NCBI GenBank assembly: GCA_965645245.1
Contig: OZ287068.1
Location: forward strand, 2,232,001 to 2,296,000
Direction: 5' to 3'
From: Massalongia carnosa
Lineage: Eukaryota
Length of the DNA: 64,000 nt
Shown here: positions 15,976-44,900 of the stretch, one piece after another
Layout: every line of letters begins with the position of its first letter
How positions within the stretch are numbered: position 1 is the stretch's first letter
Translations under genes and position numbers: made by a program
Notes under the pieces: model-generated
Seen by the model: only the letters and a program-made list of their open reading frames with translations
What the model was told of the DNA's origin: nothing
The model's database searches: none

Positions 15976-18625
15976 TACGAACGAGAGTTACACGAAAAAT
16001 CCGTTGGAAAAAAGTCGTCGTGATGATGTGATTCTGCTGATCAAAACCACCAGATGTCCCAGATGATACTTGTTATATCTTCACCAAACCAACAACGCTC
16101 TCAATTCAGTGCTGAAACAGAAAGAGTGAAAAGTCAATGGATGAGCACAGAACATCACATATAAACTCCCTCTGAACAAACTAATATACTCAAGCTGCTC
16201 GTCCGTGCTCCCTAGTTATAGGATCAGCTCAACGCCGCAGAACCTCAAAATCTTCAGCCCCACTTCAGGCGTCCCATGGCCGAAACACGCTTGCGGGGAT
16301 TCCGACGTTGGAGCATGTTGGGAACTCTCATAGCAGTGGTGGTTATTTCCATCCGGAGCATACGGCAGAGCTGCAGTGGAAGTTTCGACAGCGTATGAGC
16401 GATCTGCATGAGAACAGATCAGCTCTGAGGGAGGCTTCGAAGGTAAATAGACGTTACGACTGAAAAAGAACGGATAGGAGAAAAGGGGAAGGTGGAAAGG
16501 ACCCTTGACTTCAGCCCTCGAGTATGCGCCAATTATTTAACTAGTTACGCCGCTGCTGGCAGCCTAATTTTCCGCCTCCCGCTGTAAGGAACCGACTCTG
16601 CATCATCTCTCCATTGGACCAGCGCCAATTGAAACCGAGCTTCATGAACGGAAACTGCAACTGTGCAGAGATCTGCACTGGTTATATCCGATGTGGCTAA
16701 GAGGCTTCGAGAATAAAATGGAGTGATTAGTGGTTTCCAACTAAATCGCTGCATAGTAACTATTCGGACATGGTCTTGAGATGGTCTCGAGATATTATCC
16801 ACTAGAACGTTCTTGTCATAGTCTATCTACTAAGTGATTACGTCAGTCAATGTTCAGATATTCTGTTTTAAAGACAATCTCATAACTTTATCATAAGTAA
16901 AATATCTTATACGGCAAATTACTGAGATGAACCCCAAATAACCCTCCCATCTTGCCTGGGGGTTATTTGGGGGTCAATTACCGTAATATACACGCAATTT
17001 TGCTTCTTGCGCTGTCACGATGACCCCCAAGAACTATAATTAATTGAAGGGGATCATTTGGGGGTCATTGCGATCGCACGATTAAATGACAAGCACGAGG
17101 AAAAGCGACTAGATACCTATACAAAAATATACGAAAACCATCACAATACAATATCATGATCTAATTTTCCATCCTCAGACTGTCATGTTTCGATATGTCA
17201 TTCCTTCAGCAAAAAAATCGCCTCCGAAGAAGTGGCACATGAAACATAGCTAGCCGGCAGATGCTCTGTCACTTCATGAAAGAAAACACGATTGCTTATC
17301 CTTTCTTTCTGTAAGGATAATCTCTAGACCCATCTATTGACTCGGCTTTGTCCCTCGCCTTTGTAGTTTTCGAGGAGGTGACTTGTTTATTAAGTCAGTC
17401 AATGACACTTCTCTAGTGCTTTCTAAAGCTGCCTTCGCTAAGTTGGCATGCTTTGTGTGTAAAGCTTCTTGCGCTCTCACAGTAGGTTTCAATATCCGTC
17501 CAGATCTAGATTTACGAGGTGAGATCAGTGCCCGGTCACGTTCTTTACCTTTCTCTAGCATGCTCCAAATTTGCTCCTCCGCTAGTATATTATCAGCTTC
17601 CTGTCGCTCATCCGCTGATGTATTCTCGACTTCTTGTCGCTCTTCCGCTAATGTATTCTCGGCTTCCTCTCTCTCTTCCGATAATGCATCGTCTTTTTCG
17701 TACGGAAAGTCATCAGAATCATAGCCCACTGGTGTTCTCTCCCCTTCCGAAAGTGGTGTTGGCTCTCCTAATGGAATGCGTAGAGGAAGAGGACATCGTC
17801 TTTGAGGATACGTCCATAATGGGCGGGTGAACAACTTTCTAAGAACTGAAATATGTGACGATGGAGCTGGAGCTATATGCTCGAAATGAGGAACGATAAT
17901 TTGATACTGTCGCTCTGTCAGATATCTTCGACCTTGCTCTCAATGATTAGCCATGAATTAATCTTAAGGTGAGTACGTACCTGTTTAGCATAAAGTATTC
18001 GTTTTTTGCGAGCATCTTCTTCGGCCGCCTATGGAAAGCGACGTTTGTAATTTCTATGTCCCTGTAGTGTTCCAGCAAACGTCTGATTCATATCAAAGCT
18101 TTGAAATTGTTATAACTGTGCCTCGTCCATGTCTAACCATCAAATAGCCCAGCGAGCATAGTTCTTCTGCTCTTCCTTAGTCTCTTCCGATGAGTCTGTT
18201 ACAATTGACGACGATTGAGATCGAGATGAGGAATTCATTTCACTCTCGAGGGTAATATTTTTGTCGCGATGAGATGTAAAACTCTTGTCACTCGGTCGCA
18301 ATATCTTCATCGGTTTGAGCCGAGAATCTGCGAGACCTAAAAACAAAAGAACGATCACTGAATCCATTCCAGTCACTTATGTCAGTATGAACACTCATAT
18401 TGTCGCTCTCGCCGTCATGATTGCTGTCGCTATTATTGTCATTAGAGTCATTGTCATTCTCTTTATCAACTTCATTTTCGTTGTGACTAGATTGAGAGAC
18501 AGAAGCAGTTTTGGATCTACTACTAGCAGAAACGTCACTCGCGGAAGGTCCCGAGAGATCACATGTATTGTACGCCTGTTATGCTTGAAACTCTTGCAGA
18601 TTGAGCATCTCATCCTCTGCTTTGA

Positions 18626-20301
18626 TTAATCAAATCGTTTTCTTCTCTCACGTCTGATTTTTGGGCGACCAGCCTGGACTACAAATTCTGGTGGTTTCAC
18701 ATCGGCCGCTGCGAGAACATTGAGATCAACAGGTTGTAAAAATGACTGGTATGTTGCCTTGTACTCAGCGATTGTAAAGATGGGACTGATAAAATCCTCT
18801 GATTCTCTTTCTTGCTTCATACATAACGCAACGGCATGAGCACATGGCATCTCATAATCCTGAAAATCATGACAAGTACACGTCTTGGCTTCCGGATCCA
18901 CGATGTGATGACTTCCAGTACCAGTAGTGACGATACAGAAAGGACGAGAATTTTGAACAGTATACTCGGCCGATTGTTTCCGTCCATCTTGAATCCATCT
19001 CCAGGCATAATCAGTGACTCTATCTGTCTTGTGCTCAAGCTTGTGCCGTTCATAAAGTTTGTCCATGCATTGGTTCCAAATCTGATGGAGACAAAGCAAT
19101 GCGGGCATGTGACGTGCCTCCAGCCAAATATTATTTTGCGACTTTTGAGCATTAGAACATAATTGACCATATCGAGGACGAGGAAAAGCATATACAGCCC
19201 ACTGCTCTGGAGGTATGTCTTCAATATAGCCCGCGCAATAAGGTCTCGTCGCTCTAATTCTGTTGAGAATAGTGTTGATTTTTGCCTGTGTTTTAGCTTT
19301 GGCTGCATCCCAGAAAAGATCCCGATATGACTTCTTCCATTTTTTATCGACATTGTCTCCGAGATGTTTGCAACAATGAGCACTTAAAGCAACAGGAAAA
19401 TGATCAGATACTGCATGTTTGATACCTTTGTTGCGATCACTAATAATTACTGCTTGTCGTCCCGAGCGAAATCGAATATATAATGCCATTGCCCGTAAAA
19501 AATAGATCCAGTTATCTTTGTTCTCGATTGAGACCAATGCCCACGCCAGTTCCAATACCTGGTTGTTACCGTCTTGAGTAACAAGAGACAAGATCACAAG
19601 CCCGTCCGATGTCTTGGAAGCGGTACCATCACACTGAAGCACCGAACGACAATGACGAAAAGCACGCTCAGTCGCCTTTGGCAGTACCCAACATCGTTTG
19701 AAACAGCCGTTTTCGTCTAGCTCCAGATTTGTTCATGCTGTTCGTGTATTGTTTTATTCTTCGCATGCTGACAAGAATGCAGGTATATATTGAAAGCTTT
19801 GCTTAATATTGCCAAACCGCTTAATCTTGAGAAACTCTTTTGTGCGCCACATCGCCATATAATTTGTGTTGTTTCATCGACTGGAAGTCTCGACGGTCAT
19901 TAAATGCATCGATTTAACCCGATGATCAGATTGCACAAGTGCTTGATTTGTCTTGTTGGTGGCTAAATACTGAACAGCATTGCTACCTGAATGGCCGGAG
20001 TGGTTCGATATGGCACAGGTATGAGGGATCATTTTAGTGAGTTTCCCTGATCTAATGTCAGTATTTCTTTGTCTTAGCTCTTATACATTTAAGTATTACA
20101 TCTCCCAGTTTTGTTGGACAAGCTGGCTCTGATTCGAAAGTCACAATGATCGCACTTAACTAGATATCTATTCTTCTCGGCCTTCTCAACACGCCATAAC
20201 TCGCTCTTGCTTGCAAGCCAATTAGTGATCGCCTATCTTGTCTCATATTTATCGTCCCACTCTTGACCGACATAAAGCGACATTATTGATGATTCGGCCA
20301 T
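18626..20301 (-). pseudogene. MULE transposase with SWIM zinc finger; 5' part has stops and frameshifts
   Basis: QCDGT...DGNNQVLELAWALV, IISDRNKGI, HCCKHL and SWIM CTCHDFQDYEMPCAHA. Likely ATG at 20301 followed by an in-frame stop. Confidence 0.85.
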
Positions 20302-20413
20302 AGTGAGATTGATGAGATGGTTCTATGTCACGTGAGGCCCCTGAGTCAAAGTAAATTAAGAATCACCCTCTGAAAATTCTTTCCTCATCCACTTCTTCTC
20401 ACTCGGCCTCATC

Positions 20414-20558
20414 CATCTCACTGACTCGTCGTCGACCCCACGTTGTCTCGGTGCCCCTACCTCGCTGTCAGTGCTTGCTGCTTTTCCCATCTCACTGACT
20501 CGTCGTCGACCTCACGTTGTCCTCGGTGCCCCTACCTCGCTGTCGGTGCTTTTTCCCA
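20414..20558 (+). repeat. Tandem duplication of ~73 bp in the 5' leader of the YR element
   Basis: CCATCTCACTGACTCGTCGTCGAC..CTCGGTGCCCCTACCTCGCTGTC.GTGCTT occurs twice (~20414 and ~20487). Confidence 0.85.
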
Positions 20559-21572
20559 ATGACGAACACCCGTTCCCAAAGCACCCCGATGGACGACATA
20601 GTCCCCGACTCCCAGGAGATTGTCGGATTGACGCAGGCCCAGTCCAATCAAATCTTCGCCCTACAAAAGAAGAAAGCCGAGGCAGAAGCGAAGGCGGCCG
20701 AGGCTGAGGCCAGAATTGCCGAGTCCAAGGCATTGGTCGCCGAGAAGGAGGTGGAAAAAATGCAGCTAGAAATCGACTGCATGCGCCGAGAATCTGACGC
20801 CCGAATAGCGGCCGTCATTCCTGCTGGCAAGCCGAGTCGTGTCGTCGGCGATGACGACGAGGACCTAGGTGAGATCCCTCTCGAAGTAAGAAGTATAGCA
20901 CCCCGTTTCGCGGGCCTACCACAGGACGAGATCATCAAGATCTTTTCAAATAAATTCAAAGCCATCAACCTCTCCCGCCTCCGACACATGCACGGCATGC
21001 AATACGAGTCCTACAAGGATCAGGACCGCATCGGCATCGAAGACGGCGCCTTGAGGTTGAGAAAGGCATCCGGGACCTACAAAGATTTCGGAAAGACAGT
21101 TCATGACGTCTGGACCGAGAGCTTCATCAACTACACCTCGATCATGGTCAGTCTTTTCGGGAAATCGAGTCAACAGCTTCACGCCACCATGTCGGCATTC
21201 CACGGAAAAATCCTCACGCTGGCCAAGGTGTACGAGTGGCAGGAAGCAGTCCTCCCCCTCGCCATCGAAACCCACACTCACATCATCGCGTCTCAGCCAT
21301 CCGACGCATCCCAATGGAAAATGCCCGACGAATTCCAAGCTCGATTCTGCACCCCCCTCACAGTCCTACGCCGTCGCCGCTCACGATCCCCGCCGTCCCG
21401 GCGACCGACCCCGAGAGGAGACAGGGCCGATAGGGCCGAGAAGGCAGCGGGGGAAATCTGCGACAAGTACAACAGCGGCACCTGCACCTGGCCGTCGTGC
21501 TACCGACAGCACAAATGTAAATCGTGCGGCGCGGCTGGGCATGGCCAGAAGACATGCCCAACGAAGAAATAG
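20559..21572 (+). CDS. Gag-like ORF1 of the YR retrotransposon (coiled coil, C-terminal CCCH plus CCHC-like zinc fingers)
   Basis: ATG at 20559 (MTNTRSQ). C-terminus ICDKYNSGTCTWPSCYRQHKCKSCGAAGHGQKTC. Confidence 0.75.
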   Translation: MTNTRSQSTPMDDIVPDSQEIVGLTQAQSNQIFALQKKKAEAEAKAAEAEARIAESKALVAEKEVEKMQLEIDCMRRESDARIAAVIPAGKPSRVVGDDDEDLGEIPLEVRSIAPRFAGLPQDEIIKIFSNKFKAINLSRLRHMHGMQYESYKDQDRIGIEDGALRLRKASGTYKDFGKTVHDVWTESFINYTSIMVSLFGKSSQQLHATMSAFHGKILTLAKVYEWQEAVLPLAIETHTHIIASQPSDASQWKMPDEFQARFCTPLTVLRRRRSRSPPSRRPTPRGDRADRAEKAAGEICDKYNSGTCTWPSCYRQHKCKSCGAAGHGQKTCPTKK

Positions 21573-21617
21573 GGGGTTGGTGCAGGAGGCAGTAGAATAG
21601 CTTCAATAGCTGAATTC

Positions 21618-23322
21618 ATGACGTCCCATCCCTGCTTACCTGCACCAATCAGACCAAATACAATCCCTTCGTTTCAACTCGTAGACGCATCTCGTCAGCG
21701 TTTGAAAGACAGCCCATCTCCCCTCGTACCGTCCGCATGGGCAACTCTACTTCAAGAGTATCCGGGCCCCCTCCGAGTCCATCTGCCCATGATCCTTCGT
21801 TTCGGAGTACAAATCGGATACGAAGGCCCCACAGACATCCTTCGGATCGAAAAAAATCTGACATCAGCGAATGAGGACCCGGAAACGATCGAGAATAAGC
21901 TCCAAGAGGACCTCAGGAAGGGCCGAGTCAGACGAATAGCCGCCCCGAGTCAGCCATTTGTGGCCTCCCCCCTCGGCTTGGTCCCGAAACATGACGGAGG
22001 ATGGCGACGCATTCATCATCTGTCTCATCCCAATCAAACATCAGTCAACGACAACATTCCAGAAGAGGCATCCAAATTACAATACGCCAGACTCGACGAC
22101 ATTATTCAATTGATTCTGTCAGCGGGCAAAGGTGCTGTCATAGTGAAAAGAGACGTCAAAGACGCCTTTCGAAACGTTCCCGTCGCACCTCATCATCAAT
22201 GGCTTCTGGGTTTCGGATGGAATGACGAATTCTACACCGAGACATGCCTTTCGTTCGGACTGTCGACGGCCCCGTTCATCTTCAATCTTTTTGCGGAAGG
22301 CTTTCATTGGATTTTGGAATCCTTTCTACAATGGAGATTACATCACTATCTAGACGACTTCGTTGCAATTTTCCCATCCGAGACATCGTCAGAACGATTG
22401 CACCAAGAAACAAAAGCCTACAACATTCTCACCGACATTCTTGGCATCCCGAGAAACGACTCAAAAGACGCCGAGGGAACGACAGCGACAGTCTTCGGAC
22501 TCGAGGTCGACACCATCAACAGTCTTATTCGTCTGCCAGCGGACAAGCTGGAAAAAGCGAGAATCATCACTACAAAGGCACTAAACGAGACGACAATCAG
22601 CCTCGGCGACATGCAGTCAATAGCGGGCTTCCTAAGCTTCTGCGCACAGGCAGTCAAATTGGGCCGAGTCTTCTTACGATTATTCTGGAATTTTATAGCC
22701 TCATTTCCCTCGGGCAGTCATCGTCGGGTCAAAAGAAGAATTCCCACATGGGTCAGACAGGATCTCATCTGGTGGAACAAACTTCTAGTGGACTTCAACG
22801 GTATTGTCTTCTTCGAGACGTCAACACGAGACACGATCAAGGTGCATACGGATGCATGCCTCACGGGTCTCGGAGGCTATTTTCAACAAGACAACGAGCT
22901 CGTGAATCAAAAAAAACGCATGTAGGGCCCGAGTCCTAGTCCTCAATCAGGAAGGATCACCGAGCATAAACGTCCGAGAAGTCGAAGCTATCCTTCTAAT
23001 CCTTCAGAAATGGGCGCCGACATGGCGACATCGACAGATCCTTGTCTTTACCGACAGCAACACAGCATACACAGGATTCACGAATCTAACCCTCAAGGGA
23101 CCGGCCAACGCGCCTCTACGAGAAATACTGTCCATAGCTGCAAAGTGGGACATCGTACTACGTTGTCAATGGATCAGTGGCACTTCCAATGGACTAGCAG
23201 ATGCCCTGTCACGTTTTGATGATGAAAGATTGGCTAACTTTTGCCCTCATTGGCAGAACCCATACAATTCGATGAACCTCCCTCCACCTACCTATCCTCC
23301 ACACCAGGGTCAGCCCTGGTAA
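21618..23322 (+). CDS. Reverse transcriptase/RNase H of the YR retrotransposon; frameshift at an A-run near 22910-22917
   Basis: SPLGLVPK..WRRIHHLS, KRDVKDAFR, LSFGLSTAPFIF, HYLDDF and HTDAC. The shifted frame continues SINVREVEAI..FTDSNTA..NGLADALSR to TAA at 23322. Confidence 0.88.
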
Positions 23323-24404
23323 AACGTCTCGTCTGGCACGGACACTCGGCGGACACGAGAAAAGGGTACGGGACGGCGATCGACTCATACGAGGCATTCT
23401 GCGCGACGACGGGACGCACGTCGTGGCCTGCAACAACCGAGTCCCTCGAGGAATGGCTAGCCGGTCGACTATACGGGGGCGGCACACCCAAGCAGGGAAA
23501 GATAAAACCAGAGACGGCAGCGAGCTACCTCGCCGGCCTCAGATCATACCATGTAGACCGAGGATACGGCCTCACCCCATTCGAGGGGCCGAGACTTCAA
23601 TTGATGCTGAAAGGGGGAAAAAGGATCTTTTCTCAGACAAAAAGAAGACGCCTACCCATTTCAAAAGAATTACTGACAAAAATCACCAGTATTCCCGCTC
23701 ATTCGGCCGAAGACCTCAACATCGACGCGACATTCAAAGTTGCATGGGCAGGGTTCCTCAGACTCGGGGAAATCACCTACACTGTCGCTGATCGTAAGAA
23801 GACATCTTTTCAGAGATTGAAACCTACACGAGGTGACATCTCATTCGCCGAGAACGATCAATACGCGACATTACGTCTCAAAAGAAGCAAAACAGACACA
23901 AATCACTCAGGAGTTCAGATAGTGCTGGCAGCGACCAATGAGAGCACTTGCCCCGTGACAGCACTACGGCGTCTTTTCAGAAATGATCCTCAGCCATCTA
24001 CATCCCCGCTTTTTCGTCTCGGCACCGCATTCACCAGAGCCTCCGTCATAGCATCCCTGAAAAAGAGACTGATAGCCGTCGGCATCAACGACTCGGCATA
24101 CTCGGGACACAGCTTCAGAAAAGGAGCAGCACAACACGCCGCCGACCACGGGATGCTGGATGAGAGTATTCAGAGACTCGGAAGATGGTCATCAAACGCG
24201 TTTCAGCTATACTTTCAGACGTCCCAGGCCTCACTATTCAATTTGAACCTCAGTTTTCAAAAAGGCATCCCTCTAGCAGTCCCACGTGCTGTCGTCGCCG
24301 AGACGAATCCTACAAACTCCTACCCCTACTCAATTGGGCATTCCATTGGGCGTACAGGTCAACCAGGGCATCGATCCGGAGCGCCGCCGGGCACCTCCAT
24401 CTAG
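23241..24404 (+). CDS. Tyrosine recombinase (phage-integrase family) of the YR retrotransposon; start uncertain, overlaps RNase H
   Basis: Catalytic residues: FLRLGE (R), RSKTD (K), HSFRKG (H-x-x-R), GRWSS and QLY (Y). Confidence 0.9.
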   Translation: MPSLAEPIQFDEPPSTYLSSTPGSALVKRLVWHGHSADTRKGYGTAIDSYEAFCATTGRTSWPATTESLEEWLAGRLYGGGTPKQGKIKPETAASYLAGLRSYHVDRGYGLTPFEGPRLQLMLKGGKRIFSQTKRRRLPISKELLTKITSIPAHSAEDLNIDATFKVAWAGFLRLGEITYTVADRKKTSFQRLKPTRGDISFAENDQYATLRLKRSKTDTNHSGVQIVLAATNESTCPVTALRRLFRNDPQPSTSPLFRLGTAFTRASVIASLKKRLIAVGINDSAYSGHSFRKGAAQHAADHGMLDESIQRLGRWSSNAFQLYFQTSQASLFNLNLSFQKGIPLAVPRAVVAETNPTNSYPYSIGHSIGRTGQPGHRSGAPPGTSI

Positions 24405-31873: not shown

Positions 31874-32980
31874 TTAATGACCAGTCATGGCCCCCTCAGC
31901 TGAGATGACGTCCTTTAGCCGTTGAGGCATTGATCGTACTCTCTCATTAATAAACTCCTGACTGACTGTCGCCCAGCCCTCACAAATCAATGCTTTTAAG
32001 CTCGCTTCGTCCCAATGAGGATACTTTTTAATATGCTGCTTTGTGGGCTGCCAGCAGTTTTCAATAGGAGCCAAATCAGGTGAAGAAGAGCAGTTGAAAT
32101 AATGCTCTAAACGATGATCCTCCTTCCATTTCTTGACTGCGTTTCTCGTCCTGCCTGTGCCATGCCCGGAATCACCATCTTCTTCGAGCTCAAAATCATC
32201 CCCTCGCTCTAGCCACGGCTTGACAACGGGCTCAAGTATTGAGTTAATGTATACTTGATGCGTCATCTTGCCATTGCTGTTGCCCGGCACTTCGTAGAAT
32301 ATAATATCCGACTTGAAGTTGTAGCCTACAGCCGCCCAACAATGCAGTCTCTTTCGATCTTTCTCCGCTGGCGCATCACGATGTTGTATACAATCCCATC
32401 TATAGCGTGTGCCTGGCTGACGTATGATGCGTAATTTGCCCTCGGGCCCGTAGGAGAAATGAACTTCGTCACTAAATCGTACTCGATACCAATCTTCTGG
32501 TTTAGGATATTTGGCCAGCATTATATGAGCGTATTCCACCCGTTTTTGCATAGGAGGGTCGGCCAGCCATCCTTTGACGCAGGCTAGACATTTCTCGTAA
32601 CTCAATGCAGCACGTAGCACGTAATGCATTGTACGACCCACAACATCTGCTCCAACTTCCATCGCAACTTGTTCCCATGTCAAGCGTTTTCCTTCGAGTT
32701 GTAGCTCATCTTCCTGAAGCAGCCGATCAGCCTCTCGTACTTGCTCGCCTGTGATTTTTGATCGTCTTCCTCGCGTTTCTATAAGCTCTGTATGATGACG
32801 AGTACGTGTCGAAGCTCCTTTGCGAATAATTCTGTAGCCAGCTCGTTCCGAAACGCCATACTTCTTGAAAAGATTTCGTGGATCATGTACGATGCCTTCA
32901 TCAAGAAGATATTCATGAATTCCTTGAAGTTTAGCTCGAATGGGAGTATCGTAGTGAGTTGCACGTTGCTTACGAGGCAT
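31874..32980 (-). mobile_element. Tc1/IS630-like transposase, intact 368-aa ORF; matching TIR pair not found
   Basis: Motifs RFSDEVHF, HCWAAVG, EEDGDSGH and SPDLAPIENCW. Confidence 0.85.
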
Positions 32981-36939: not shown

Positions 36940-38550
36940 ATGATCACGAACGAATACGCCTTGACGCGTGAAATGAGTGAAGCCTACCACTTAACATGTA
37001 AAGCGAGGGAGGTACTAAAAGGTATGGGGGAGACCGTACCAGGCGCAGTAGTGAGTCGCTGGATACTCGCATTGGTGGAGTTCATAGAACAAAACGAGGC
37101 AAAACGCGACGCGCCTGACGCGTCGAATCAAGAAAGTCTTCAAAGCACACTGCACGACATACAACAAAGATTACAGAAGATTGAGAAGCAGGGAGAAAAC
37201 AATGGAAAAGCGCTCAGCTACGCCGCCGTCGCGTCTGGGGGCCGTAGGGGAACGACTGGGGATATCGGAAAGACGCAGACCCAAATCGATGAAAACATGC
37301 TTAGAGAAAAGAGAAAGATGAAAGAACTCATAGTCAGAATAGAAGATCCCAAAGAGCAAGAGGCCTTGGGAAGAAAGACGACAAAAGAAATCATAGAAGC
37401 TATAAAAATCCCCAACAGCGAGATAGCGGGTATCAGGAAGCTCCCCAGCGGGGATTTGAAAATCCACACCAAAACAGCGCAGGCTAAGCAGAGCCTCCAA
37501 TCACAACCAGCATGGATAAAGAATGTGGCGGCATCGGCGACGATTCGTAAAGAGGGATACGCGGTAATAGCACACGGCATGCGGATGAACGATGTACGAG
37601 GACCAAAACAAATGAAGGCCATAGAATATCTGATAAGAGAAAACAAGGATCTGCACGAAGACCTAAAAATTAATAGAGTGGCATGGAGCACTAGAGCCAT
37701 TAAGCAGAACAAGAGATACGCGTCTATGCACATCGAGGTAGAAACTGCGGAGATGGCCAATCGGCTCATCCTCGTAGGTCTAGCAGACAGAGGAGAAATC
37801 AAGACGTGCGAGCTATTCGAAGCCGGATGCAAGCTCACACAATGCTTCAATTGTCAACAATACGGCCATATAGCAAAGTTCTGCAGAAATCCCACCACAT
37901 GTGGATACTGCGCGGGGAGACACGAAAGCCGATCGTGCCCCGGCAACAAGGCGCCGAGGTTCCTACGATGCGGAGCGTGTGGAGAAAAAGGCCACCCAGC
38001 ATGGGCGGCAGAATGCAGAACAAGAAAGGAGAGAAAGCATCGAACGGAAATCGCAAGGGACTCCGCTAGAAGACTTTACGCAACACCTCCGAGCGGGAGA
38101 GAAGAGGAAAAGAGAAAGGAAAGAGGATTAGGATCGAAAAGCACACCATCTCCCAACGCACCGCTGCAGAACGTCGAAGTGATCATCACAACCGACAACA
38201 ACAAAGACACCCAACGAAGCCAGACCGACGGGACAGGGAGCACCATAGTAGAGGAGGAAGAGGTACAGGAGACAAACGATGAAGAAATGACAGAGGCTAT
38301 GGAAACAATAAGAAAAAGAAAGCCAAGCACGAACCTCGCAGGAAGACCGCTGGTGGCACGATCGCGATCATTATCGCCCAGGAGAGAGGATAGAGAGAAG
38401 CCCCTACGAGGAAGAGAAGAATGGAGAACGACAAGAATGATGAATCCGGAGATTCGAGAAATGGCCTTCGCCAAGCCGGTGAGAGGTCGTCCACGCATCA
38501 GGACGCCAAGCACTAACGAAGAACTTCTCAACAATGACGATCAATTATGA
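36940..38550 (+). CDS. LINE ORF1 (gag-like, CCHC zinc knuckles)
   Basis: QCFNCQQYGHIAKFC, CGYCAGRH..C and CGACGEKGH..C. Confidence 0.92.
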   Translation: MITNEYALTREMSEAYHLTCKAREVLKGMGETVPGAVVSRWILALVEFIEQNEAKRDAPDASNQESLQSTLHDIQQRLQKIEKQGENNGKALSYAAVASGGRRGTTGDIGKTQTQIDENMLREKRKMKELIVRIEDPKEQEALGRKTTKEIIEAIKIPNSEIAGIRKLPSGDLKIHTKTAQAKQSLQSQPAWIKNVAASATIRKEGYAVIAHGMRMNDVRGPKQMKAIEYLIRENKDLHEDLKINRVAWSTRAIKQNKRYASMHIEVETAEMANRLILVGLADRGEIKTCELFEAGCKLTQCFNCQQYGHIAKFCRNPTTCGYCAGRHESRSCPGNKAPRFLRCGACGEKGHPAWAAECRTRKERKHRTEIARDSARRLYATPPSGREEEKRKERGLGSKSTPSPNAPLQNVEVIITTDNNKDTQRSQTDGTGSTIVEEEEVQETNDEEMTEAMETIRKRKPSTNLAGRPLVARSRSLSPRREDREKPLRGREEWRTTRMMNPEIREMAFAKPVRGRPRIRTPSTNEELLNNDDQL

Positions 38551-41500
38551 GAGACACGAACACTCTCACAATTCTGCAGTACAACGTCAGGAAAAGTGCG
38601 AAAGGCACACTGATACCATTGCTTGCAGACGAGAAAACAAAGAATTTCGATATCATTGCTATTCAAGAACCATGGAAAAACCCTACAACGGCCCTACTAC
38701 TCAACCCCTATCAGAGCGGGTTTCACTTACTTTACAAATCCGGAGGAGACACACGCGTCTGCTTCTATATCAACGAGAAGATAGATCCAGAAAGTTGGGA
38801 CGTGGAATATCCAACAGAAGATCTATGCACATTGAATATAGAAATCAGAATAGGAAGCGTGTTAAGAAAAATTCATATACACAACATCTACAATCCATCC
38901 CCGTTATCTATCTCAGCGACGGATAGTCCGTCTACCCTACCGGCCGCCCTGCGTCAACTGAACGGGCCAGGAGAACACATCTTGCTAGGGGATTTCAACC
39001 TTCATCATCCACATTGGGGAGGTGCGAGAGTGCGAGGTCAACACGAGGCGTCCGAACAGCTACTAGACATCATTGAAAGTAAAAATCTTTCGCTCACCCT
39101 GCCAAGAGGAACAGTGACATGGGAGGCAAGAAACTCATTCAGCACCATCGATCTGGTGTTCATGACGGAAGATCTCGTAGAAAGATTGGAACACTGTATC
39201 ACAGTCCCGGAGCTGAATCAAGACTCAGATCACGTACCAATATCGACGAGGCTCCGCCTCACCTGTGAACCCCTTACGCCTCCCCGCCGAAGAGCCTGGA
39301 AACTCCTGGACATGAATAAACTGAGAGAAGTTGAGAGAAATGCCCCCACACCACGCGTCGTACGAGGCGCCAACGAAATTGATGCATACACTGCAGATAT
39401 TCAAGACTACCTCAAAAGAATCGTTCAGGAGGCGGTACCATGGGCTAAACCTAGTCCCCAGGCGAAGTCCTTCTGGAATAGAGAGTGCGAGGAGGCAACG
39501 AAGGAGACCCGCAGGCTTCGTAGGATCTGGACGGCGGAAAGAAATCTGTCAGACTGGAAAAACTACATCAGAATGAACGACAAAAAACAGAAAATCATCG
39601 GTAAGGCAAGAAATCTTCATTTCAGAGAACAAATGGCCGAAGTTGCAGCATCAAGAACAGGACTCTTCCGACTCGCAAAATGGGGCAAAGACAGAAGCGA
39701 CGCACCAAGAGAAATTCCAAAAATGCCCCCGTTAGCAACAGCACAAAATCCCAATACGATAGCAGACACGTTCGAGAAGAGAGTAAATATGCTGAAGAAG
39801 TCCTTCTTTCCCCCTCCTCCTAACGCGGATCTCGGGGATCTCGTAGGATATTCGTACCCTCCAACACCAGAATGTCCAGCACTGATAACGGAAGAAGAAG
39901 TGGCGGCGGCGCTGCGAAAGCCAAAGCCAGACAAAGCCCCAGGACCGGATGGAATCACAAATAGAATTCTCAAAGCCTGTTCAGAAAACCTAATCAAATT
40001 GCTGACACCACTTTTTCAAGCATGTGTGAATGAAGGATATCATCCGAAAGTCTTTAAAATCGCCAACACTATCACGCTAAAGAAGCCAGGAAAAGGAAAC
40101 TATACGGATCCCAAGGCATGGAGACCCATAGCGTTGTTGAACACGTTGGGCAAAGCATTGGAATCCATTATAGCAAGGAAAATTAGCCATCTGACGGAAG
40201 AATTTAAACTGATCCCGGATACTCAAATGGGTGCAAGGCCGGGCCGCGGAACGGAAACAGCACTGGAGCTGCTCACTGAACAAGTGCACACCGTATGGAA
40301 TCAGGGTAACGATAAAGTGGCATCTCTATTGAGCATAGACGTATCGGGAGCCTTTGACACCGTCTCTCATCGTAGGCTCATTCACAACATGAGAAAACGA
40401 AAGATCCCAGAGTGGATAGCCAAATGGACGGATAGTTTCTTGAAAGAAAGAGAAACCACGCTCACGATTAATCAACGCACCACTAACGCATTTCCGCTGA
40501 GCATAGGAATCCCTCAGGGATCTCCTCTATCTCCCATTCTATATCTCTTTTACAATGCGGACCTCTTAGACATTTGCAATAGACCCAGCACAAACGCGGC
40601 AGGCATAGGATTCGTAGACGACGTGAACATCCTGACATATGGCAAATCCACGGAAGAAAATTGCAAAACATTGAAAGAAATACACGAGAATTGCGAACGA
40701 TGGGCGAAACGCCACGGCTCCGTGTTCGCGCCGCATAAATACGAGCTCATACATCTAGCAAAAAATCCCAAGAAATTCAATCTCGAAGCTTCCTTCACAG
40801 TAAACGGCAAACTACTCAACGTCACGAAATCTGTACGAGTGCTGGGGGTGTACATAGACACGAGGCTCAATTGGTCGGCGCACTACAAAGAGATACAGAA
40901 GAAAATGACGAGACAAACGAGAGCGCTGACTAGAATCGCCGCAGCCACTTGGGGTGCGACCCTCCTACAAGCCCGTCACGTGTACACGGCGGTGGTACGC
41001 CCGGCAATGACCCATGGTTCTCTGGTATGGCACACGCCGGAGGAAACACAAAAGCACGTCAAAGTCACGAGGAAAAGCAAACTCGAGATCGTACAAAACA
41101 AATGTTTACGAGTAGTAGCCGGAGCGTACAGGGCCACACCCATCGAGGTGTTACAGGCGGAAACATTCATCTGTCCATTGACGCAACATTTGGATCATCT
41201 GCAGGCCAAAGGTAGATCGAGGCTACAACACAACGGTCAGGCAAAAGTCATAGAACAGGCATGCGAGAAAATCAGAACGAGATTGAAAGGGAAAAGAGGG
41301 CGACAACGGATTATTGGAGAAACACCGGGAGCTCGTAGACAGAGATGGGTGGCCAAGCTGACAGCTGAAGTATCAACAAAGAGAAAGCCCAAACGCACAC
41401 CACCATGGGAAAAAGCGGAGAATGCACAAGAGGAAAAACGAGCAGAATATGCCGCACTTCAAAGAGAAAGAGACGGAATCATAGCGAAACGATTTAAAGA

Positions 41501-41921
41501 AAAATGGAAGGACAAATGGATAGCGTATCAATCAATACATACGCTTGATCCAACAATAGCACAGTCGGGTCCATTGCACAAAAACAGGTTGAACACGCAC
41601 AAGCTGCTGAATAAGGCGCAAAGCTCCCTCGCAATTCAAATTAGAACAGAGAAAATCGGGTTAGCGAGTTTTCTATTCAAACGCAAGGTGCCAGACATTG
41701 AGTCCGCGGCCTGCCTGTGCGGAAGCCGCTTTCAAACGGCGAAACATGTGATAATGTTCTGCGGATTGCATAATAGAATCGATATGTTGCGTGCAGCTGG
41801 CTCGCTGGATTATCAAAAACTGATAACAGACCCCAAAGCGATCAAAATAATCACTGCATGGCTTATGCGTACGGGCATACTAACACAGTACACCATTGCC
41901 GCGCAAATGACGGAGCAATAA
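38547..41921 (+). CDS. LINE ORF2 (APE endonuclease + reverse transcriptase + C-terminal Cys/His)
   Basis: LQYNV, IQEP, GDFNLHH, SDH, KAPGPDGI, WRPIALL, GIPQGSPLSP, FVDD and CLCG..TAKHVIMFC. The ATGA overlaps the ORF1 stop. Confidence 0.95.
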   Translation: MRDTNTLTILQYNVRKSAKGTLIPLLADEKTKNFDIIAIQEPWKNPTTALLLNPYQSGFHLLYKSGGDTRVCFYINEKIDPESWDVEYPTEDLCTLNIEIRIGSVLRKIHIHNIYNPSPLSISATDSPSTLPAALRQLNGPGEHILLGDFNLHHPHWGGARVRGQHEASEQLLDIIESKNLSLTLPRGTVTWEARNSFSTIDLVFMTEDLVERLEHCITVPELNQDSDHVPISTRLRLTCEPLTPPRRRAWKLLDMNKLREVERNAPTPRVVRGANEIDAYTADIQDYLKRIVQEAVPWAKPSPQAKSFWNRECEEATKETRRLRRIWTAERNLSDWKNYIRMNDKKQKIIGKARNLHFREQMAEVAASRTGLFRLAKWGKDRSDAPREIPKMPPLATAQNPNTIADTFEKRVNMLKKSFFPPPPNADLGDLVGYSYPPTPECPALITEEEVAAALRKPKPDKAPGPDGITNRILKACSENLIKLLTPLFQACVNEGYHPKVFKIANTITLKKPGKGNYTDPKAWRPIALLNTLGKALESIIARKISHLTEEFKLIPDTQMGARPGRGTETALELLTEQVHTVWNQGNDKVASLLSIDVSGAFDTVSHRRLIHNMRKRKIPEWIAKWTDSFLKERETTLTINQRTTNAFPLSIGIPQGSPLSPILYLFYNADLLDICNRPSTNAAGIGFVDDVNILTYGKSTEENCKTLKEIHENCERWAKRHGSVFAPHKYELIHLAKNPKKFNLEASFTVNGKLLNVTKSVRVLGVYIDTRLNWSAHYKEIQKKMTRQTRALTRIAAATWGATLLQARHVYTAVVRPAMTHGSLVWHTPEETQKHVKVTRKSKLEIVQNKCLRVVAGAYRATPIEVLQAETFICPLTQHLDHLQAKGRSRLQHNGQAKVIEQACEKIRTRLKGKRGRQRIIGETPGARRQRWVAKLTAEVSTKRKPKRTPPWEKAENAQEEKRAEYAALQRERDGIIAKRFKEKWKDKWIAYQSIHTLDPTIAQSGPLHKNRLNTHKLLNKAQSSLAIQIRTEKIGLASFLFKRKVPDIESAACLCGSRFQTAKHVIMFCGLHNRIDMLRAAGSLDYQKLITDPKAIKIITAWLMRTGILTQYTIAAQMTEQ

Positions 41922-44900
41922 TGAGAGGAGAATTGGTTTTTTCTTCTACTTATTTTCTTTTCTTCTCTTTTATTCTTGCACTTACTCAGGCGCATAACGG
42001 GTATAGCGGGTTTCCCAAACCGTAGAGATCAACCCGGGGAAAGAGCGAGTCCTCTACAAACCTGGTACGCAGGAGCAGTTTTTTACCCGTTCGGGTTTTC
42101 TGCCTTTATATAGCCTATGTAGTATCTCCCGCATGGGCCAGCTTCAGCTGGTGTCATATCGGCGTAAGAAAAATCAATCAATCAATCAATCAATGGAAAG
42201 CACTATTCACATCAAGATGAATGTGCACTGAGATATATTCTTTTCAAGACTATCGTATTTCTCAAATGATATCAGACTTTATATGATCTGCGGATATTTC
42301 TCATCAAACACAAGTTGAATTTTAAGCTATCTTACACGTGCAGGACAATGTTGAATCATCTCAATCAGGAAAGCGCTCAAAAAAACATACAAACCGGGAA
42401 CCTTCCGGTGTACCTAGTTTAGCGAAGACATGTCCGGGATCTTGAGACCATCTCAAGACCATGTCCGAATACCCCCAACCGCCCTTAAGGTAGGTATCAT
42501 AGTAAATGCTCACGGCTGTGTCACGATTTGTAGTCAGCGGTTACCTGCATTCTTTATCTTATTTCAGCCTCAACAGTCCTGATTGCTCCTCTATTAACTA
42601 TCCTCATTCGCTTCGCTGCACAACTCCATCACGACTATGGCCTTTTGTCTACCGAGCTACCTGCCTACCTTGCCTACCTGCTTACCTCTTCGCATTGGAC
42701 GATTGCCATATTCCGTTCATGGCTGCGATATGTAGTATAGGAGTGGGAGATGAACATGTTTTCGACCAAAATGAAGAGATTAAAGTCACCAGACTTGTCC
42801 AGATAGTTGAAGAACCGATGGCATTCAATGAAAGGAGGCTAGGTGGGGAAGGTTTTCATTTCTTCGATACTCTGTATACCGTTGGAATATTCTCTGCGAC
42901 AACATCTCTATACTTGCTCAACAATCATTGGAACATTACACCTCGATCGGAAGTGCGGAAGACATGCTATTTTTCATGTACGCTTCTTGATCATTTAGGC
43001 ACGCATGAACACAATTTTCATCAAAGCCAATCAAGATTCTTAATATATCCAAAAATCAATCTTTCATAACTAGCCTATGGCAGTCTAAGCGCCACCTCCA
43101 AAGACTTCCTGAGATATCTGAACAGATCCTCAAAAGGAGTAACGAGCCTCCAATGTTCGCTTGTTGACTTCATCTTCATGATTGTTAAAATGCCAGTAAG
43201 CTTACCACTAACCGCCGATCCCAAGTCTCCTGGCTCTAAACCTAGATGTCCCCCCCAATTACATCAATTTCGCTCGATGTCATGCCATACTCAGGCCATG
43301 ATACAGCTTGTTCCACACCGTTGACGAAACCAGCGATGATCCAGACGTACGCCTATTACCTCTCGAGTAATTCCCGTTCGAGGGGTTGACTACCATAACT
43401 TGAAATAGCCATGGGACCCTAAAACGTTCCGGAATTCCAAAGTTTGCAGCTTTTCAAAGTGACACGGCTTCATCTTGGGTGCCAATGCGCAAAATATCCA
43501 TCTGGATTTGATCCCTGCTGGGGATTCTGATCTGGCAATAGAGACAGCAAGAGATTCGTGAGATCCCATGTTTTCCCAAAATATTCGGCACTTATGTTCT
43601 CAAACCCATTGGTTGATATAATCCTGAGCTTCAAAGCAATCGGCTGCTCTAACGTGCTCAAATGGTGGCACAGACGCAAAGGTACTCGAGGAGACTCGAA
43701 AGTGGTCTTTATGGCTAATGCTATATTCTTCGATTGACTCTTCAAGGCCATGATGACGGTTAGCCGAGAACAGAGGCAAATATGGAGTTATTCTCACCTT
43801 GAGTTGCGGATTGGTACCCTAGGTCTACATTCTCACAGGAGGGGTCCTGCTTCCTGTTGTGCCCGGATGAAATTTCTCTAGTACACGGGCGGGAAAACAC
43901 GAAATCGAAATTATTACGAGAGAGATAGGCACGCTTAGAAAGGAAGCTTCAGAGGAAATTGTAATGAAATATATATATAAGAAAAGGCAGGCCAGTCTTT
44001 TAAAAAATCAAATCAGTTTGACTGTTCCAGAGATAGCAGTGGTTCCAAGTAGTTTTGATGGAAAGAGTGAGGTAGCTCATAAGCTAAGAGAATTCGAAGA
44101 TAACCGGTTGAAATTGTTATAAAAATAAGAAGACCTTACAGGAAAATTGTTTAGTAGAGTATACGGGATTGCGAACGGTCAGGGAATAGCCAGTCAGCTA
44201 GATTAAGGAGTTTGATGAGTACGTATGGAGCCATAAGAGGATCAGGATATGAAGCAGCGGGAAAGGAGAAAGAGAGATGGATGGGAGGTGAGAGAAGAGA
44301 GATGAATTAATCTACGGAGGAGTCTAGTAGAAGATGGGTTAGCAAGAAAAGTAAACGAACCGAGAAATGAACCAAAGCTCACTACAAGACGAACCCTCTC
44401 CAAAAAAAATCGTGAATCACAAACGTCAATATCCAAGCAAAAGAGATACCTTCGCGCATAGAGTGGTAATGGTTACAAACCTCGCATGATCGACAATATT
44501 GGAATTTAAGGATAGTATTGTAGAAATAGAATAGTGCGAACTGTTTTGGATAGTGGGGAACGTGGGACAAGGCAGAAGTGGAGGGGATGAAGAAGGTGAG
44601 TTGGTGGGTAAGAAGGTGTGTAGAGAAGTGGGTATGTAGGTAGGTAGAGAGATAGGGAGGGACGGACGGAGTGCGTTTCGTTGTTGAGTTGACTATCTGA
44701 GCATTAGTATAGTAGATGACTCACGAGTAGGTGATATTTTACGATTGATTGAGTGGATGGTTGAATAAAATCTTTTTTTATGCTGATGCAGCTATTCGCT
44801 GAAGGTTTGTTGACTTTAACAATTTTTTTTGCTTTGATGGACGGTTTATTTTCTTGAGAGCAGTAAGGGGGTAGGGGGAGGGGACTTAACTTATGCGGTT

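What the first reader, a model, noticed from the sequence alone, without database searches (positions are those of the whole stretch)
16761..42471. Hidden ~25.7 kb TIR element carrying a CMC-like transposase and an SNF2-like helicase
Seen: a 33-bp inverted repeat (1 mismatch) brackets 25.7 kb and is not explained by any nested element. Subtracting the MULE/YR, Tc1 and LINE insertions leaves roughly 8-9 kb. That remainder has a divergent unknown ORF set (25.5-26.4 kb, minus strand), a long frameshifted transposase-like gene and a helicase-C relic. The ends are not CACTA: they read TA-TTCGG...CCGAA-TA, so the TA may be a TSD. Inference: a poorly described family of large multi-gene fungal DNA transposons.
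Basis: partly seen in the sequence, partly recalled or inferred. Interest (0 to 1): 0.75.

Follow-up and report, generated by a model that had tools for sequence, protein, structure and literature searches.

The report
Decayed CMC-type fungal DNA transposon copy
The 25.7-kb stretch is a real but dead copy of an 8.6-kb cut-and-paste DNA transposon of a lichen-type ascomycete, swollen by four later insertions; its transposase belongs to a widespread, unnamed RAG1/EnSpm/Plavaka-like family, so it is poorly catalogued mobile DNA and not a new kind of system.

Summary
A 33-nt inverted repeat with 1 mismatch sits at 16761-16793 and 42439-42471, and it is the only such pair in the window. Four nested insertions lie inside it, each with its own target duplication or with an 'empty' form in other copies. 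Removing them leaves an 8.6-kb unit. It reads: TIR, a short unknown gene (-), a divergently transcribed ~1,270-aa transposase pseudogene (+), the C-terminal half of an SNF2-family ATPase (+), TIR.

The transposase has D-D-E with an invariant C(2)C. It matches no Pfam model and gives only sub-threshold Plavaka hits. Its relatives number 787 clusters, and all 28 sampled names are 'hypothetical' proteins of Pezizomycotina.

Public-run contigs show the unit at about 14-29 times flank depth in three runs. The repeat boundary falls exactly at 16761. Other copies lack the nested insertions and two of the frameshifts.

Not shown: a target-site duplication (TA is possible, no empty site was seen), the right end in other copies, or any helicase-transposase linkage in other fungi. 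The helicase is only a 5'-truncated relic.

The closest described element is Sly1-1 of Neurospora (CMC type, two divergent genes). Verdict: a new member of a known kind, of modest interest.

The parts
16761..16793 (+). Left terminal inverted repeat (33 nt). Contains two tandem 11-mers, GGTCTTGAGAT and GGTCTCGAGAT. The first two bases, TA, may be a target duplication.
   Evidence: The deep run X4's single-copy flank contig ends at 16790, which is 16760+30. That is expected for 31-mer graphs if the repeated sequence starts at 16761 (table 8).
16794..16911 (+). Left subterminal region of the host element, up to the MULE insertion site.
   Evidence: A contig of run X1 joins 16882 to 25138, so the MULE is absent in that copy. 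Contigs of X2 and X4 carry a 41-nt deletion at 16848-16890 (tables 5 and 5c). Other copies of this arm therefore exist.
16912..25137 (-). Nested MULE transposon. It has long inverted ends and a MULE/SWIM transposase ORF at 18629-19732 (-). It carries a 4,334-bp DIRS-like retroelement at 20311-24644 (RT 21573-22922, tyrosine recombinase 23238-24401, + strand).
   Evidence: 9-bp target duplication TATCTTATA at 16903-16911 and 25138-25146. Inverted arms I1, I8 and I15. Pfam. Joint 20310->24645 in X2, X4 and X5.
25433..26346 (-). Unknown accessory gene, transcribed divergently from the transposase, with 188 bp between the two ATGs. GT-AG-compatible 3-exon models give about 215-224 aa with an acidic tail.
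   Evidence: ORFs. Splice-model enumeration (a model only). No Pfam hit. Atlas search uninformative. Depth is like that of the transposase.
26534..30176 (+). Transposase pseudogene, main part. Frames change near 27497-27506, 28405 and 29634-29637. There are in-frame stops just before 28423 and at 30090. Catalytic motifs are FIDDFG (D1), LGDMKQQ...CRFC (D2 and C(2)C), HGRYH, and DPAHSEY (E).
   Evidence: Other copies have an extra A after 27495 and after 29635 (table 4), so those two frameshifts are private to this copy.
30177..33448 (-). Nested 3,272-bp insertion that splits the 3' end of the transposase gene. It holds a Tc1-like element at 30192-31521 (perfect 47-nt inverted ends, 391-aa ORF), a 19-bp tandem array at 31716-31872, and a second DDE_3 ORF at 31877-33055 (26% identical to the first).
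   Evidence: Joint 30176->33449 in all 4 of 4 runs laid. Paralogues P0007 and P0176 run from 30179 straight to 33416..
33416..33595 (+). Last ~60 codons of the transposase gene.
   Evidence: tblastn of P0007 (84% identity) and P0176 (75%).
34146..35800 (+). SNF2-family ATPase relic. It holds only the C-terminal half (the inter-lobe linker, Helicase_C and an acidic/conserved tail), with frameshifts near 34565, 35200 and 35600.
   Evidence: Pfam Helicase_C, E 1.3e-3. 9 relatives at 54-68% identity. Full-length relatives have SNF2-rel_dom plus Helicase_C; the relic aligns to residues ~685-950 of the 1,224-aa P0168. One X1 contig diverges after 34084 (table 7).
36608..42192 (+). Nested LINE. ORF1 is 36937-38547 (zinc knuckle). 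ORF2 is 38538-41918 (endonuclease plus reverse transcriptase). It has a (TCAA)n tail.
   Evidence: 12-13-bp target duplication (A)ATGGAAAGCACT at 36596-36607 and 42193-42204. Pfam.
42205..42438 (+). Right subterminal region of the host element.
   Evidence: The LINE target duplication shows it was contiguous with 36607 before the LINE inserted. Not examined in other copies.
42439..42471 (-). Right terminal inverted repeat (33 nt, 1 mismatch to the left arm).

Best explanation
The segment 16761-42471 is one dead copy of a multi-copy, roughly 8.6-kb class II (cut-and-paste, DDE) transposon. Four later insertions expanded it to 25.7 kb: a MULE carrying a DIRS-like element, a 3.3-kb Tc1-like block, and a LINE.

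The ancestral unit was: 33-bp TIR; ~0.4 kb; a small unknown gene (-); a divergent ~1,270-aa transposase (+); an SNF2-family gene or gene piece (+); ~1.1 kb; 33-bp TIR.

The transposase belongs to a Pezizomycotina-wide lineage of the CMC/'CMCT' group (EnSpm/CACTA, Mirage, Chapaev, Transib/RAG1, Plavaka, ESTA, Lanisha). [quoted passage not shown] No Pfam model covers the lineage. It is most likely the kind described once as 'Sly' in Neurospora.

Inferred mechanism (not shown): transposase from an intact copy binds the paired 11-mers in the TIRs, excises the element, and reinserts it with a short duplication, probably 2 bp (TA).

This copy cannot move by itself. Its transposase gene has three frameshifts, at least two stop codons and a 3.3-kb insertion.

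The SNF2 piece travels with the family in this genome. I read it as a passenger, truncated in this copy. My odds: about 55% a decayed element gene, about 30% a captured host-gene fragment, about 15% unrelated debris.
For: Ends:
- The 33-nt IR is unique in the window and far beyond chance.
- It is the only significant inverted similarity between the two ends of the 8.6-kb core.

Nesting:
- MULE 9-bp TSD.
- LINE 12-13-bp TSD.
- Contigs that skip 30177-33448 in 4 of 4 runs laid. An X1 contig skips the MULE.

Repetition:
- Summed contig depth over 25.5-30.2 kb is 14-23x (X1), 14-24x (X2) and 15-29x (X5) that of the flank bin 15501-16167.
- The helicase bins at 34.2-35.5 kb lie at 17-19x, 17-18x and 16-22x, the same level (table 2).
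- Flank contigs of X1, X2 and X4 cross 16760/16761 and stop 30-59 nt inside. X4 stops exactly at 16790 (table 8).
- Close paralogues at 88-97% identity sit on other megabase contigs, in 90% clusters of 27, 8, 5, 4 and 1 members.

Family:
- 787 HMMER relatives, 175 below 1e-30. Full-length ones are 1,000-1,360 aa.
- In a 40-sequence alignment: D 39/40, D 40/40, C(2)C 40/40, H 36/40, E 37/40.
- Weak Plavaka PF18759 hits over the D2-to-E stretch in 3 of 31 sequences scanned.
- Atlas nearest clusters are Plavaka or Transposase_21, score 0.94, with 176 and 174 shared features.
- 18 named relatives, all 'hypothetical/uncharacterized' except one labelled 'Glutathione reductase'. They come from Lecanoro-, Coniocybo-, Dothideo-, Eurotio-, Sordario- and Pezizomycetes.

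Layout: it matches Sly1-1, an 11.5-kb CMC transposase element with an adjacent, divergently transcribed unknown gene, TIRs and TSDs (PMC4592977, passages read).
Against: - No empty site and no second complete copy were seen, so the TSD and the right end are unverified in other copies. Reads were laid only on 15501-35500.
- The termini (TATTCGG, or TTCGG after TA) are unlike the 5'-CA..TG-3' ends that most CMCT lineages share. They also differ from PlavakaA (TGT..ACA), PlavakaB (CATCA..TGATG) and ESTA (CAC...).
- No window ORF and none of the relatives scanned reaches a Pfam threshold. The best is 24.5 bits against a cutoff of 26.3.
- A family profile found nothing among PDB sequences.
- No fold could be computed.
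- The first H of H(3)H is present in only 11 of 40 relatives.
- Depth from contigs is explicitly not a copy number.
- Homology to the Sly proteins could not be tested.
- Helicase and transposase were never found together outside this window.
Confidence: 0.72

Rival explanations
1. The two 33-bp arms are not the ends of the transposase-bearing unit. They belong to another TA-flanked element, for example a short non-autonomous Tc1/pogo- or Harbinger-like element. The Plavaka-like unit either inserted into it, or is a composite that was then amplified. The real termini of the transposase unit would lie further in.
For: - TA flanks with non-CA termini are typical of Tc1/mariner/pogo and of TA-type Harbinger relatives. 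They are unusual for CMCT lineages (PMC12730594 passages).
- The bin that holds the first 74 nt of the element implies a higher depth for that piece than for the interior. This is a rough back-calculation, table 2.
- The right end was not examined in other copies.
Against: - BLAST with word size 7 finds no second inverted repeat between the left 2 kb and the right 2.5 kb of the core.
- The left arm is contiguous with 25138 onward in another copy (table 5c).
- No bin from 16835 to 35500 drops to single-copy depth.
- The nested Tc1, pogo and MULE elements in the window have quite different ends.
Confidence: 0.13
2. The element is a true three-gene transposon. An intact SNF2-type ATPase is a standard, functional component, for example helping access to chromatin or evading silencing. 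The window copy has merely lost the gene's 5' half.
For: - The helicase relic lies inside the TIRs, on the transposase strand, at the same summed depth as the transposase in X1, X2 and X5.
- One X1 contig diverges after 34084, close to where the relic's similarity starts at 34146. This fits a deletion in this copy (table 7).
- The 9 closest relatives (54-68% identity) are all fragments on 1.3-11.9-kb contigs, and two have degenerate AT-rich sequence. That is typical of repeats.
- Helicase domains are known accessory genes of DNA transposons (PMC5751038 and PMC10799480, passages read).
Against: - No copy with an N-lobe was seen.
- There is no fusion protein, and no shared contig length between 28 transposase relatives looked up and 16 helicase relatives.
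- Full-length relatives at 26-43% identity sit on large contigs as ordinary-looking SNF2 genes. In Annulohypoxylon truncatum, the helicase homologue and the transposase homologue lie on different contigs.
Confidence: 0.3
3. The inverted repeat is a chance match or an assembly artefact, and the interval is just a pile of unrelated repeats.
For: The region is very rich in transposons.
Against: - 0 of 100 shuffles gave even one match to the 26-nt core with up to 3 mismatches.
- The junction of flank and left arm is present in contigs of 3 runs from 2 studies.
- The interior resolves into one coherent gene order once the four insertions are removed. Each insertion has its own TSD or an empty form in another copy.
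Confidence: 0.01

Closest known systems
Sly1-1 / 'Sly' family of Neurospora crassa, with homologues in Chaetomium globosum and Coccidioides immitis (PMC4592977; passages read)
   Same: It is a Pezizomycotina DNA transposon of about 10 kb (11.5 kb against an 8.6-kb core here). Its CMC-type transposase has C(2)C and H(3)H between D2 and E. An adjacent, divergently transcribed gene of unknown function accompanies it. It has TIRs and decayed paralogous copies.
   Different: Sequence homology to NCU09969 and NCU09968 could not be tested here. The Sly TIR and TSD sequences appear only in a figure and in supplements that I could not read. Its TSD has at least 3 bases according to the text, whereas at most TA is duplicated here. 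No helicase is reported in Sly. The copies here show no RIP signature, unlike Sly1-3 and Sly1-4.
Plavaka (Pfam PF18759; PlavakaA and PlavakaB, PMC12730594)
   Same: It is the nearest named family by sequence. There are weak PF18759 hits over the D2-C(2)C-E stretch, and the nearest Atlas clusters are Plavaka. PlavakaA makes 2-bp TSDs, which is compatible with TA here.
   Different: The hits are below the Pfam gathering score, in only 3 of 31 sequences, and in none of the window's own ORFs. The termini are neither TGT..ACA nor CATCA..TGATG. Plavaka is described from Basidiomycota, while this lineage is Pezizomycotina.
ESTA (EnSpm-like transposons with TA TSDs, rust fungi; PMC12730594)
   Same: It is a CMCT-type transposase with TA duplications, 7-14 kb long, with extra genes.
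   Different: All ESTA sequences shown in the supplement look-up (the first 20 places of 88) begin with CAC. This element begins with TATTCGG, or TTCGG after TA. Protein similarity was not tested.
EnSpm/CACTA (CMC superfamily)
   Same: It has a DDE transposase with C(2)C, a second gene beside the transposase, and multi-kb size with repeated subterminal motifs.
   Different: There are no CACTA ends, no 3-bp TSD, and no Transposase_21/23/24 Pfam hit.
AcademH / KolobokH (helicase-carrying DNA transposons; named in PMC10799480 passages; details recalled, since the AcademH paper was not held)
   Same: These are fungal DNA transposons that carry a helicase gene beside the transposase.
   Different: Their helicase is of the DEAD/Helicase_C kind, not an SNF2 ATPase. 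The transposase here carries the CMCT C(2)C signature. The 10 nt on either side of the element do not match, so there is no long TSD. The long TSD of AcademH is my recollection.

Membership tests
CMC / CMCT clade of DDE transposons | [quoted passage not shown] | tested here: met
   In the 40-sequence alignment A3: D 39/40, D 40/40, both C 40/40, second H 36/40, E 37/40. The first H of H(3)H appears in only 11/40. The window copy has CRFC and HGRYH.
CMC / CMCT clade of DDE transposons | Termini 5'-CA..TG-3' ('in most cases'). | tested here: not met
   The ends read TATTCGG...CCGAATA.
CMC / CMCT clade of DDE transposons | Target-site duplication of 2-5 bp. | tested here: inconclusive
   TA stands at both outer ends and could be a 2-bp TSD or part of the TIR. 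No empty site was seen.
CMC / CMCT clade of DDE transposons | RAG1/Transib-like fold of the catalytic core. | not tested
   Structure prediction accepted no jobs. The sequence profile against PDB chains found nothing relevant.
Plavaka (PF18759) | Match to PF18759 at or above the gathering score. | tested here: not met
   The best hit is 24.5 bits against a cutoff of 26.3. Hits occur in 3 of 31 sequences scanned. None of the window's ORFs hits.
Plavaka (PF18759) | Termini TGT..ACA (A) or CATCA..TGATG (B). | tested here: not met
   Searches compared.
ESTA | TA duplication together with CAC... termini. | tested here: not met
   The TA flanks are compatible. The terminus is not CAC (all ESTA sequences shown start with CAC).
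EnSpm/CACTA | CACTA termini, 3-bp TSD, Transposase_21-type domain. | tested here: not met
Sly (Neurospora Sly1-1) | CMC-type transposase with an adjacent, divergently transcribed second gene inside TIRs. | tested here: met
   The accessory gene ATG is at 26346 (-) and the transposase ATG is at 26534 (+). Both lie inside the TIR pair. This shows architecture only.
Sly (Neurospora Sly1-1) | Sequence homology to NCU09969 (transposase) and NCU09968. | not testable with these tools
   Neither protein could be fetched. None of the 28 relatives whose names were looked up is from Neurospora, Chaetomium or Coccidioides.
SNF2-family ATPase (for the helicase relic) | SNF2-related N-lobe plus Helicase_C C-lobe. 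| tested here: not met
   Only the C-lobe and tail are present, at 34146-35800. Full-length relatives have both lobes.
AcademH | Long TSD (9-10 bp, recalled) and an Academ-type transposase with a DEAD/Helicase_C helicase. | tested here: not met
   The flanking 10-mers differ. The transposase carries the CMCT signature. No Academ profile was available for a direct test.

The most novel reading that the evidence does not exclude
This is the first delimited member of a separate, Pezizomycotina-wide CMCT lineage, on a par with Plavaka, ESTA and Lanisha and not identical with Sly. It would be defined by non-CA termini (TTCGG...), TA target duplications and a three-gene layout. The layout would comprise a small divergent gene, the transposase and an SNF2-type chromatin ATPase, with the element using the ATPase to gain access to, or escape from, silenced chromatin.
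Probability: 0.2. Interest if true: 0.55.

Novelty: new member of a known kind. Interest (0 to 1): 0.3.

Why it matters
Practical value. The transposase family is large: 787 clusters at 50% identity, 175 of them below 1e-30. It is spread over at least six classes of Pezizomycotina, yet it has no Pfam model and carries only 'hypothetical' labels. Repeat annotation of ascomycete genomes, lichen fungi included, therefore probably misses it or calls its fragments genes. A delimited copy with ends gives a seed for a family model.

Biological value is modest. It extends the RAG1-related CMC/CMCT group in Ascomycota. It also shows termini that depart from the usual CA..TG.

The only potentially surprising point is a transposon-borne SNF2 remodeller, and that is not established.

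Tried and rejected
1. Whole genome. None is held, so there was no genome-wide census of the TIR.

2. Public DNA collections. All of these scans found nothing:
- the TIR 22-mer in metagenome, viral and prokaryote-genome contigs;
- the helicase alignment in metagenome contigs;
No related locus with flanks could therefore be read.

3. Co-occurrence by proxy. There is no helicase/transposase fusion among 153 transposase-family proteins or 7 full-length SNF2 relatives. No contig length is shared between the helicase hits and the transposase hits looked up. This is weak either way.

No loose end at 16760 was among the rows shown, and 779 rows were not shown. Run X5 (organism B) covered the flank only to 16275 in the piece listed. 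This says nothing on absence.

6. The profile against PDB sequences returned only a chance GTPase hit, E 0.4.

7. Accessory gene. It has no Pfam hit. The Atlas hits share only 128-132 features, which is chance level.

8. Inner TIRs and subterminal repeats. None were found beyond the 11-mer motif. The 11-mer enrichment (9 against 2.7 expected) rests mainly on the 4 copies inside the TIRs.

9. RIP. The indices do not indicate it: TpA/ApT is 0.61 and (CpA+TpG)/(ApC+GpT) is 1.33 for the core.

10. Ends of the second Tc1-like element were not found.

11. Earlier scan notes. There are none for this genome. The 'Plavaka' notes concern Naegleria and did not bear on this case.

12. Papers. The AcademH paper is not held. 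The Sly supplements are not readable. They may hold the TIR and TSD sequences needed for a direct comparison.

13. Repbase and Dfam were not available.

Full report
OBSERVATION

The inverted repeat is real. Its arms lie at 16761-16793 and 42439-42471. They are 33 nt long with one mismatch and lie 25,645 nt apart. A 26-nt core searched with up to three mismatches occurs only at these two places in the window, and none was expected in 100 shuffles. Window self-BLAST shows no other similarity between the two ends. Each arm consists of TATTCGGACAT followed by two tandem 11-mers, GGTCTYGAGAT. Outside the arms the sequence reads GTAAC| on the left and |CCCCC on the right. Nothing longer than the terminal TA is duplicated.

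WHAT LIES INSIDE

Pfam scans of the ORFs, end sequences and contigs of public runs resolve four later insertions.

(i) A MULE at 16912-25137. It has a 9-bp target duplication, TATCTTATA, and long inverted ends. It carries a 4,334-bp DIRS-like element at 20311-24644. Contigs of X2, X4 and X5 join 20310 to 24645.

(ii) A 3,272-bp block at 30177-33448. It contains a Tc1-like element with perfect 47-nt ends (30192-31521), a 19-bp tandem array, and a second DDE_3 ORF that is 26% identical to the first. Contigs of all four runs laid join 30176 to 33449.

(iii) A LINE at 36608-42192. It has a (TCAA)n tail and a 12-13-bp duplication, (A)ATGGAAAGCACT.

Removing these leaves 8,606 bp. Within that core, the 33-nt repeat is the only significant inverted similarity between the left 2 kb and the right 2.5 kb.

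THE CORE'S GENES

The transposase. On the + strand, from an ATG at 26534, runs a gene that relatives show to be about 1,270 codons long. tblastn of relatives maps it to 27150-27506, 27497-28405, 28405-29631 and 29637-30179. Beyond the nested block it continues at 33416-33595. This copy has:
- three frame changes;
- in-frame stops before 28423 and at 30090;
- the 3.3-kb insertion.
Contigs from other copies carry an extra A after 27495 and after 29635 (table 4). Those two frameshifts are therefore private to this copy.

The accessory gene. It lies upstream on the - strand, with its ATG at 26346, 188 bp from the transposase ATG. It is a small gene of unknown function. GT-AG-compatible three-exon models give 215-224 aa with an acidic tail (models only). 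It has no Pfam hit, and the Atlas result was uninformative.

The helicase relic. It lies downstream on the + strand at 34146-35800.

WHAT THE TRANSPOSASE IS

None of its ORFs hits Pfam, even at E 5. An exhaustive HMMER search with the 413-aa ORF found 787 relatives, of which 456 were below 1e-10 and 175 below 1e-30. Full-length forms are 1,000-1,360 aa.

Of 16 relatives scanned, none passes a Pfam threshold and two give weak Plavaka (PF18759) hits. Of 31 sequences scanned (28 relatives plus three window ORFs), three give such hits. The best is 24.5 bits against a cutoff of 26.3, over the stretch from the second D to the E. The language-model Atlas puts Plavaka and Transposase_21 clusters nearest, at 0.94 with 176 and 174 shared features.

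In a 40-sequence alignment the residue counts are:
- first D: 39/40;
- second D: 40/40;
- both cysteines of C(2)C: 40/40;
- a following H: 36/40;
- the H four residues before it: 11/40 (present in the window copy);
- the E of DPAHSE: 37/40.

This is the signature that PMC12730594 and PMC4592977 give for the CMC/'CMCT' group of EnSpm, Mirage, Chapaev, Transib/RAG1, Plavaka, ESTA and Lanisha (passages read). A profile search of PDB sequences found nothing. The fold could not be predicted.

Of the 28 relatives whose records I looked up, 18 carry names. All are 'hypothetical/uncharacterized' apart from one labelled 'Glutathione reductase'. They come from Chaenotheca, Sclerophora, Bogoriella, Alternaria, Flavoplaca, Geopyxis, Xylaria, Biscogniauxia, Jackrogersella, Aspergillus, Annulohypoxylon and a Xylariales species. 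A further hit is from Pseudocyphellaria.

IS IT A MOBILE, MULTI-COPY UNIT WITH THESE ENDS?

No genome is held, so I used public runs. Five runs hold the left flank: one lichen metagenome, three of 'organism A' and one of 'organism B'. I laid the contigs of four of them on 15501-35500.

Depth. The flank bin 15501-16167 has depth 26.6 (X1), 168 (X2), 802 (X4) and 4.0 (X5).
- The bins over the accessory gene and transposase lie at 14-23x, 14-24x, 50-106x and 15-29x those values.
- The helicase bins lie at 17-19x, 17-18x, 57-61x and 16-22x.
- No bin between 16835 and 35500 falls to flank level.
The tool warns that summed contig depth is not a copy number. I use it only to say the unit is repeated and that the helicase relic is repeated to the same degree.

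The left boundary. Flank contigs of X1, X2 and X4 run across 16760/16761 and stop at 16819, 16819 and 16790. The X4 stop is what a 31-mer graph gives if the 30-mer starting at 16761 is shared by copies with different left neighbours. That k = 31 applies is my reading of the tool text and of Logan. This places the repeat boundary at the outer base of the TIR.

Other copies of the left arm. They exist. One X1 contig joins 16882 to 25138, so it lacks the MULE. X2 and X4 contigs carry a 41-nt deletion at 16848-16890.

Paralogues. Protein searches independently show paralogues at 88-97% identity on other megabase contigs, in 90% clusters of 27, 8, 5, 4 and 1 members. One protein (P0155) is 100% identical to the window.

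Still missing. The right end in other copies, any empty site, and therefore the TSD. TA at both ends fits a 2-bp duplication, as in PlavakaA and ESTA, but it could equally be part of the TIR.

THE HELICASE

The relic gives Helicase_C at E 1.3e-3. It has nine relatives at 54-68% identity. All are 250-522-aa fragments on 1.3-11.9-kb contigs.

Full-length relatives at 26-43% identity are SNF2-family proteins of 1,098-2,330 aa, with SNF2-rel_dom plus Helicase_C. They come from Blastenia, Geoglossum, Pseudogymnoascus, Aureobasidium and Annulohypoxylon. Solved remodellers such as Snf2, ISWI, Rad54, Rad5, CHD1 and DDM1 match only the core motifs. The window piece aligns to about residues 685-950 of the 1,224-aa P0168, plus a family-specific tail. 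The N-lobe is nowhere in the window. One X1 contig diverges after 34084, near where similarity begins (table 7). This hints that this copy lost the 5' part.

I found no fusion protein and no shared contig between helicase and transposase relatives elsewhere. Scans of public contig collections returned nothing. In this genome the relic travels with the element. Whether an intact SNF2 gene is a regular component is open.

COMPARISON WITH WHAT IS KNOWN

The closest described element is Sly1-1 of Neurospora crassa. It is 11.5 kb, with a CMC transposase, an adjacent and divergently transcribed unknown gene, TIRs, TSDs and decayed copies. The gene pair is conserved in Chaetomium, and the transposase is also present in Coccidioides (PMC4592977, passages). 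The layout is the same, but homology could not be tested.

Against the lineages summarised in PMC12730594:
- The ends are unlike EnSpm (CAC/CACTA, 3-bp TSD).
- They are unlike PlavakaA (TGT..ACA) and PlavakaB (CATCA..TGATG).
- They are unlike ESTA (CAC... with TA TSDs; all ESTA entries shown in the supplement look-up start with CAC).

That paper does not mention Sly or any Pezizomycotina CMCT family other than TET-carrying ones.

AcademH and KolobokH are helicase-carrying transposons, but with DEAD-type helicases (PMC10799480 passages). The AcademH paper itself was not held.

My searches for an SNF2-carrying CACTA/CMC element in fungi listed none. This shows only that none surfaced in those three searches.

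VERDICT

The element is best filed as a new member of a known kind: CMC/CMCT cut-and-paste transposons, probably the Sly type. It has two unresolved oddities, the non-CA termini with possible TA duplication and a co-amplified SNF2 fragment. I rate interest at 0.3. It is useful for annotating ascomycete repeats and is not surprising to a transposon specialist unless the helicase proves to be a working element gene.

Noticed in passing
window 20311-24644 (inside the MULE at 16912-25137): A DIRS-like retroelement with reverse transcriptase, an RNase H-like part and a tyrosine recombinase. It is by far the most repeated thing in the interval. Summed contig depth is about 60-130x flank level in X2. 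MULE copies without it exist (joint 20310->24645).
   Followed up: partly
window 36608-42192: A LINE with uninterrupted ORF1 (537 aa, zinc knuckle) and ORF2 (1,127 aa, endonuclease plus RT), an unusual (TCAA)n tail and a 12-13-bp target duplication. It looks young and possibly active.
   Followed up: partly
window 30192-31521: A Tc1-like element with perfect 47-nt inverted ends and an open 391-aa transposase ORF, which suggests a recent insertion. Its immediate flanks (TTCA|...|GGTT) show no obvious TA duplication.
   Followed up: no
protein P0167 (2,330 aa, named by its source as a Blastenia crenularia MAG protein): The closest full-length relative of the helicase relic fuses an OTT_1508-like deaminase domain (residues 321-391) to the SNF2 ATPase. 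A deaminase-remodeller fusion in a lichen fungus could relate to repeat mutagenesis or genome defence.
   Followed up: no
window 16761-42471 core and its nested elements: None of the repeats shows a RIP-type dinucleotide signature (TpA/ApT 0.46-0.66; (CpA+TpG)/(ApC+GpT) 1.19-1.37), although the host is a Pezizomycotina fungus. Differences between copies are mostly transitions in both directions (table 1).
   Followed up: partly
window 4332-6227, 7260-9893, 9925-11811, 54644-55985: Four more inverted-repeat-bounded elements. Three have pogo/Tc5-type DDE_1 ORFs and one has a Tc1-type HTH. The 64-kb window is a transposon nest between ordinary genes: ice-binding-like (342-1064), bestrophin (14563-15987), multicopper oxidase (47043-48884), eIF2D (58277-60031) and Sey1 (61370-63379).
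   Followed up: partly
window 53173-53694: A tandem array with a ~108-bp period (self-BLAST offsets 108, 216 and 324), inside an ORF that gives many weak, scattered Pfam hits. It is probably a low-complexity repeat protein or a satellite.
   Followed up: no
window 34084 (run X1, table 7): One contig of the lichen metagenome follows the element up to 34084 and then continues for 255 nt with unlike sequence. Another copy may keep sequence that is deleted here, possibly the 5' half of the SNF2 gene.
   Followed up: no
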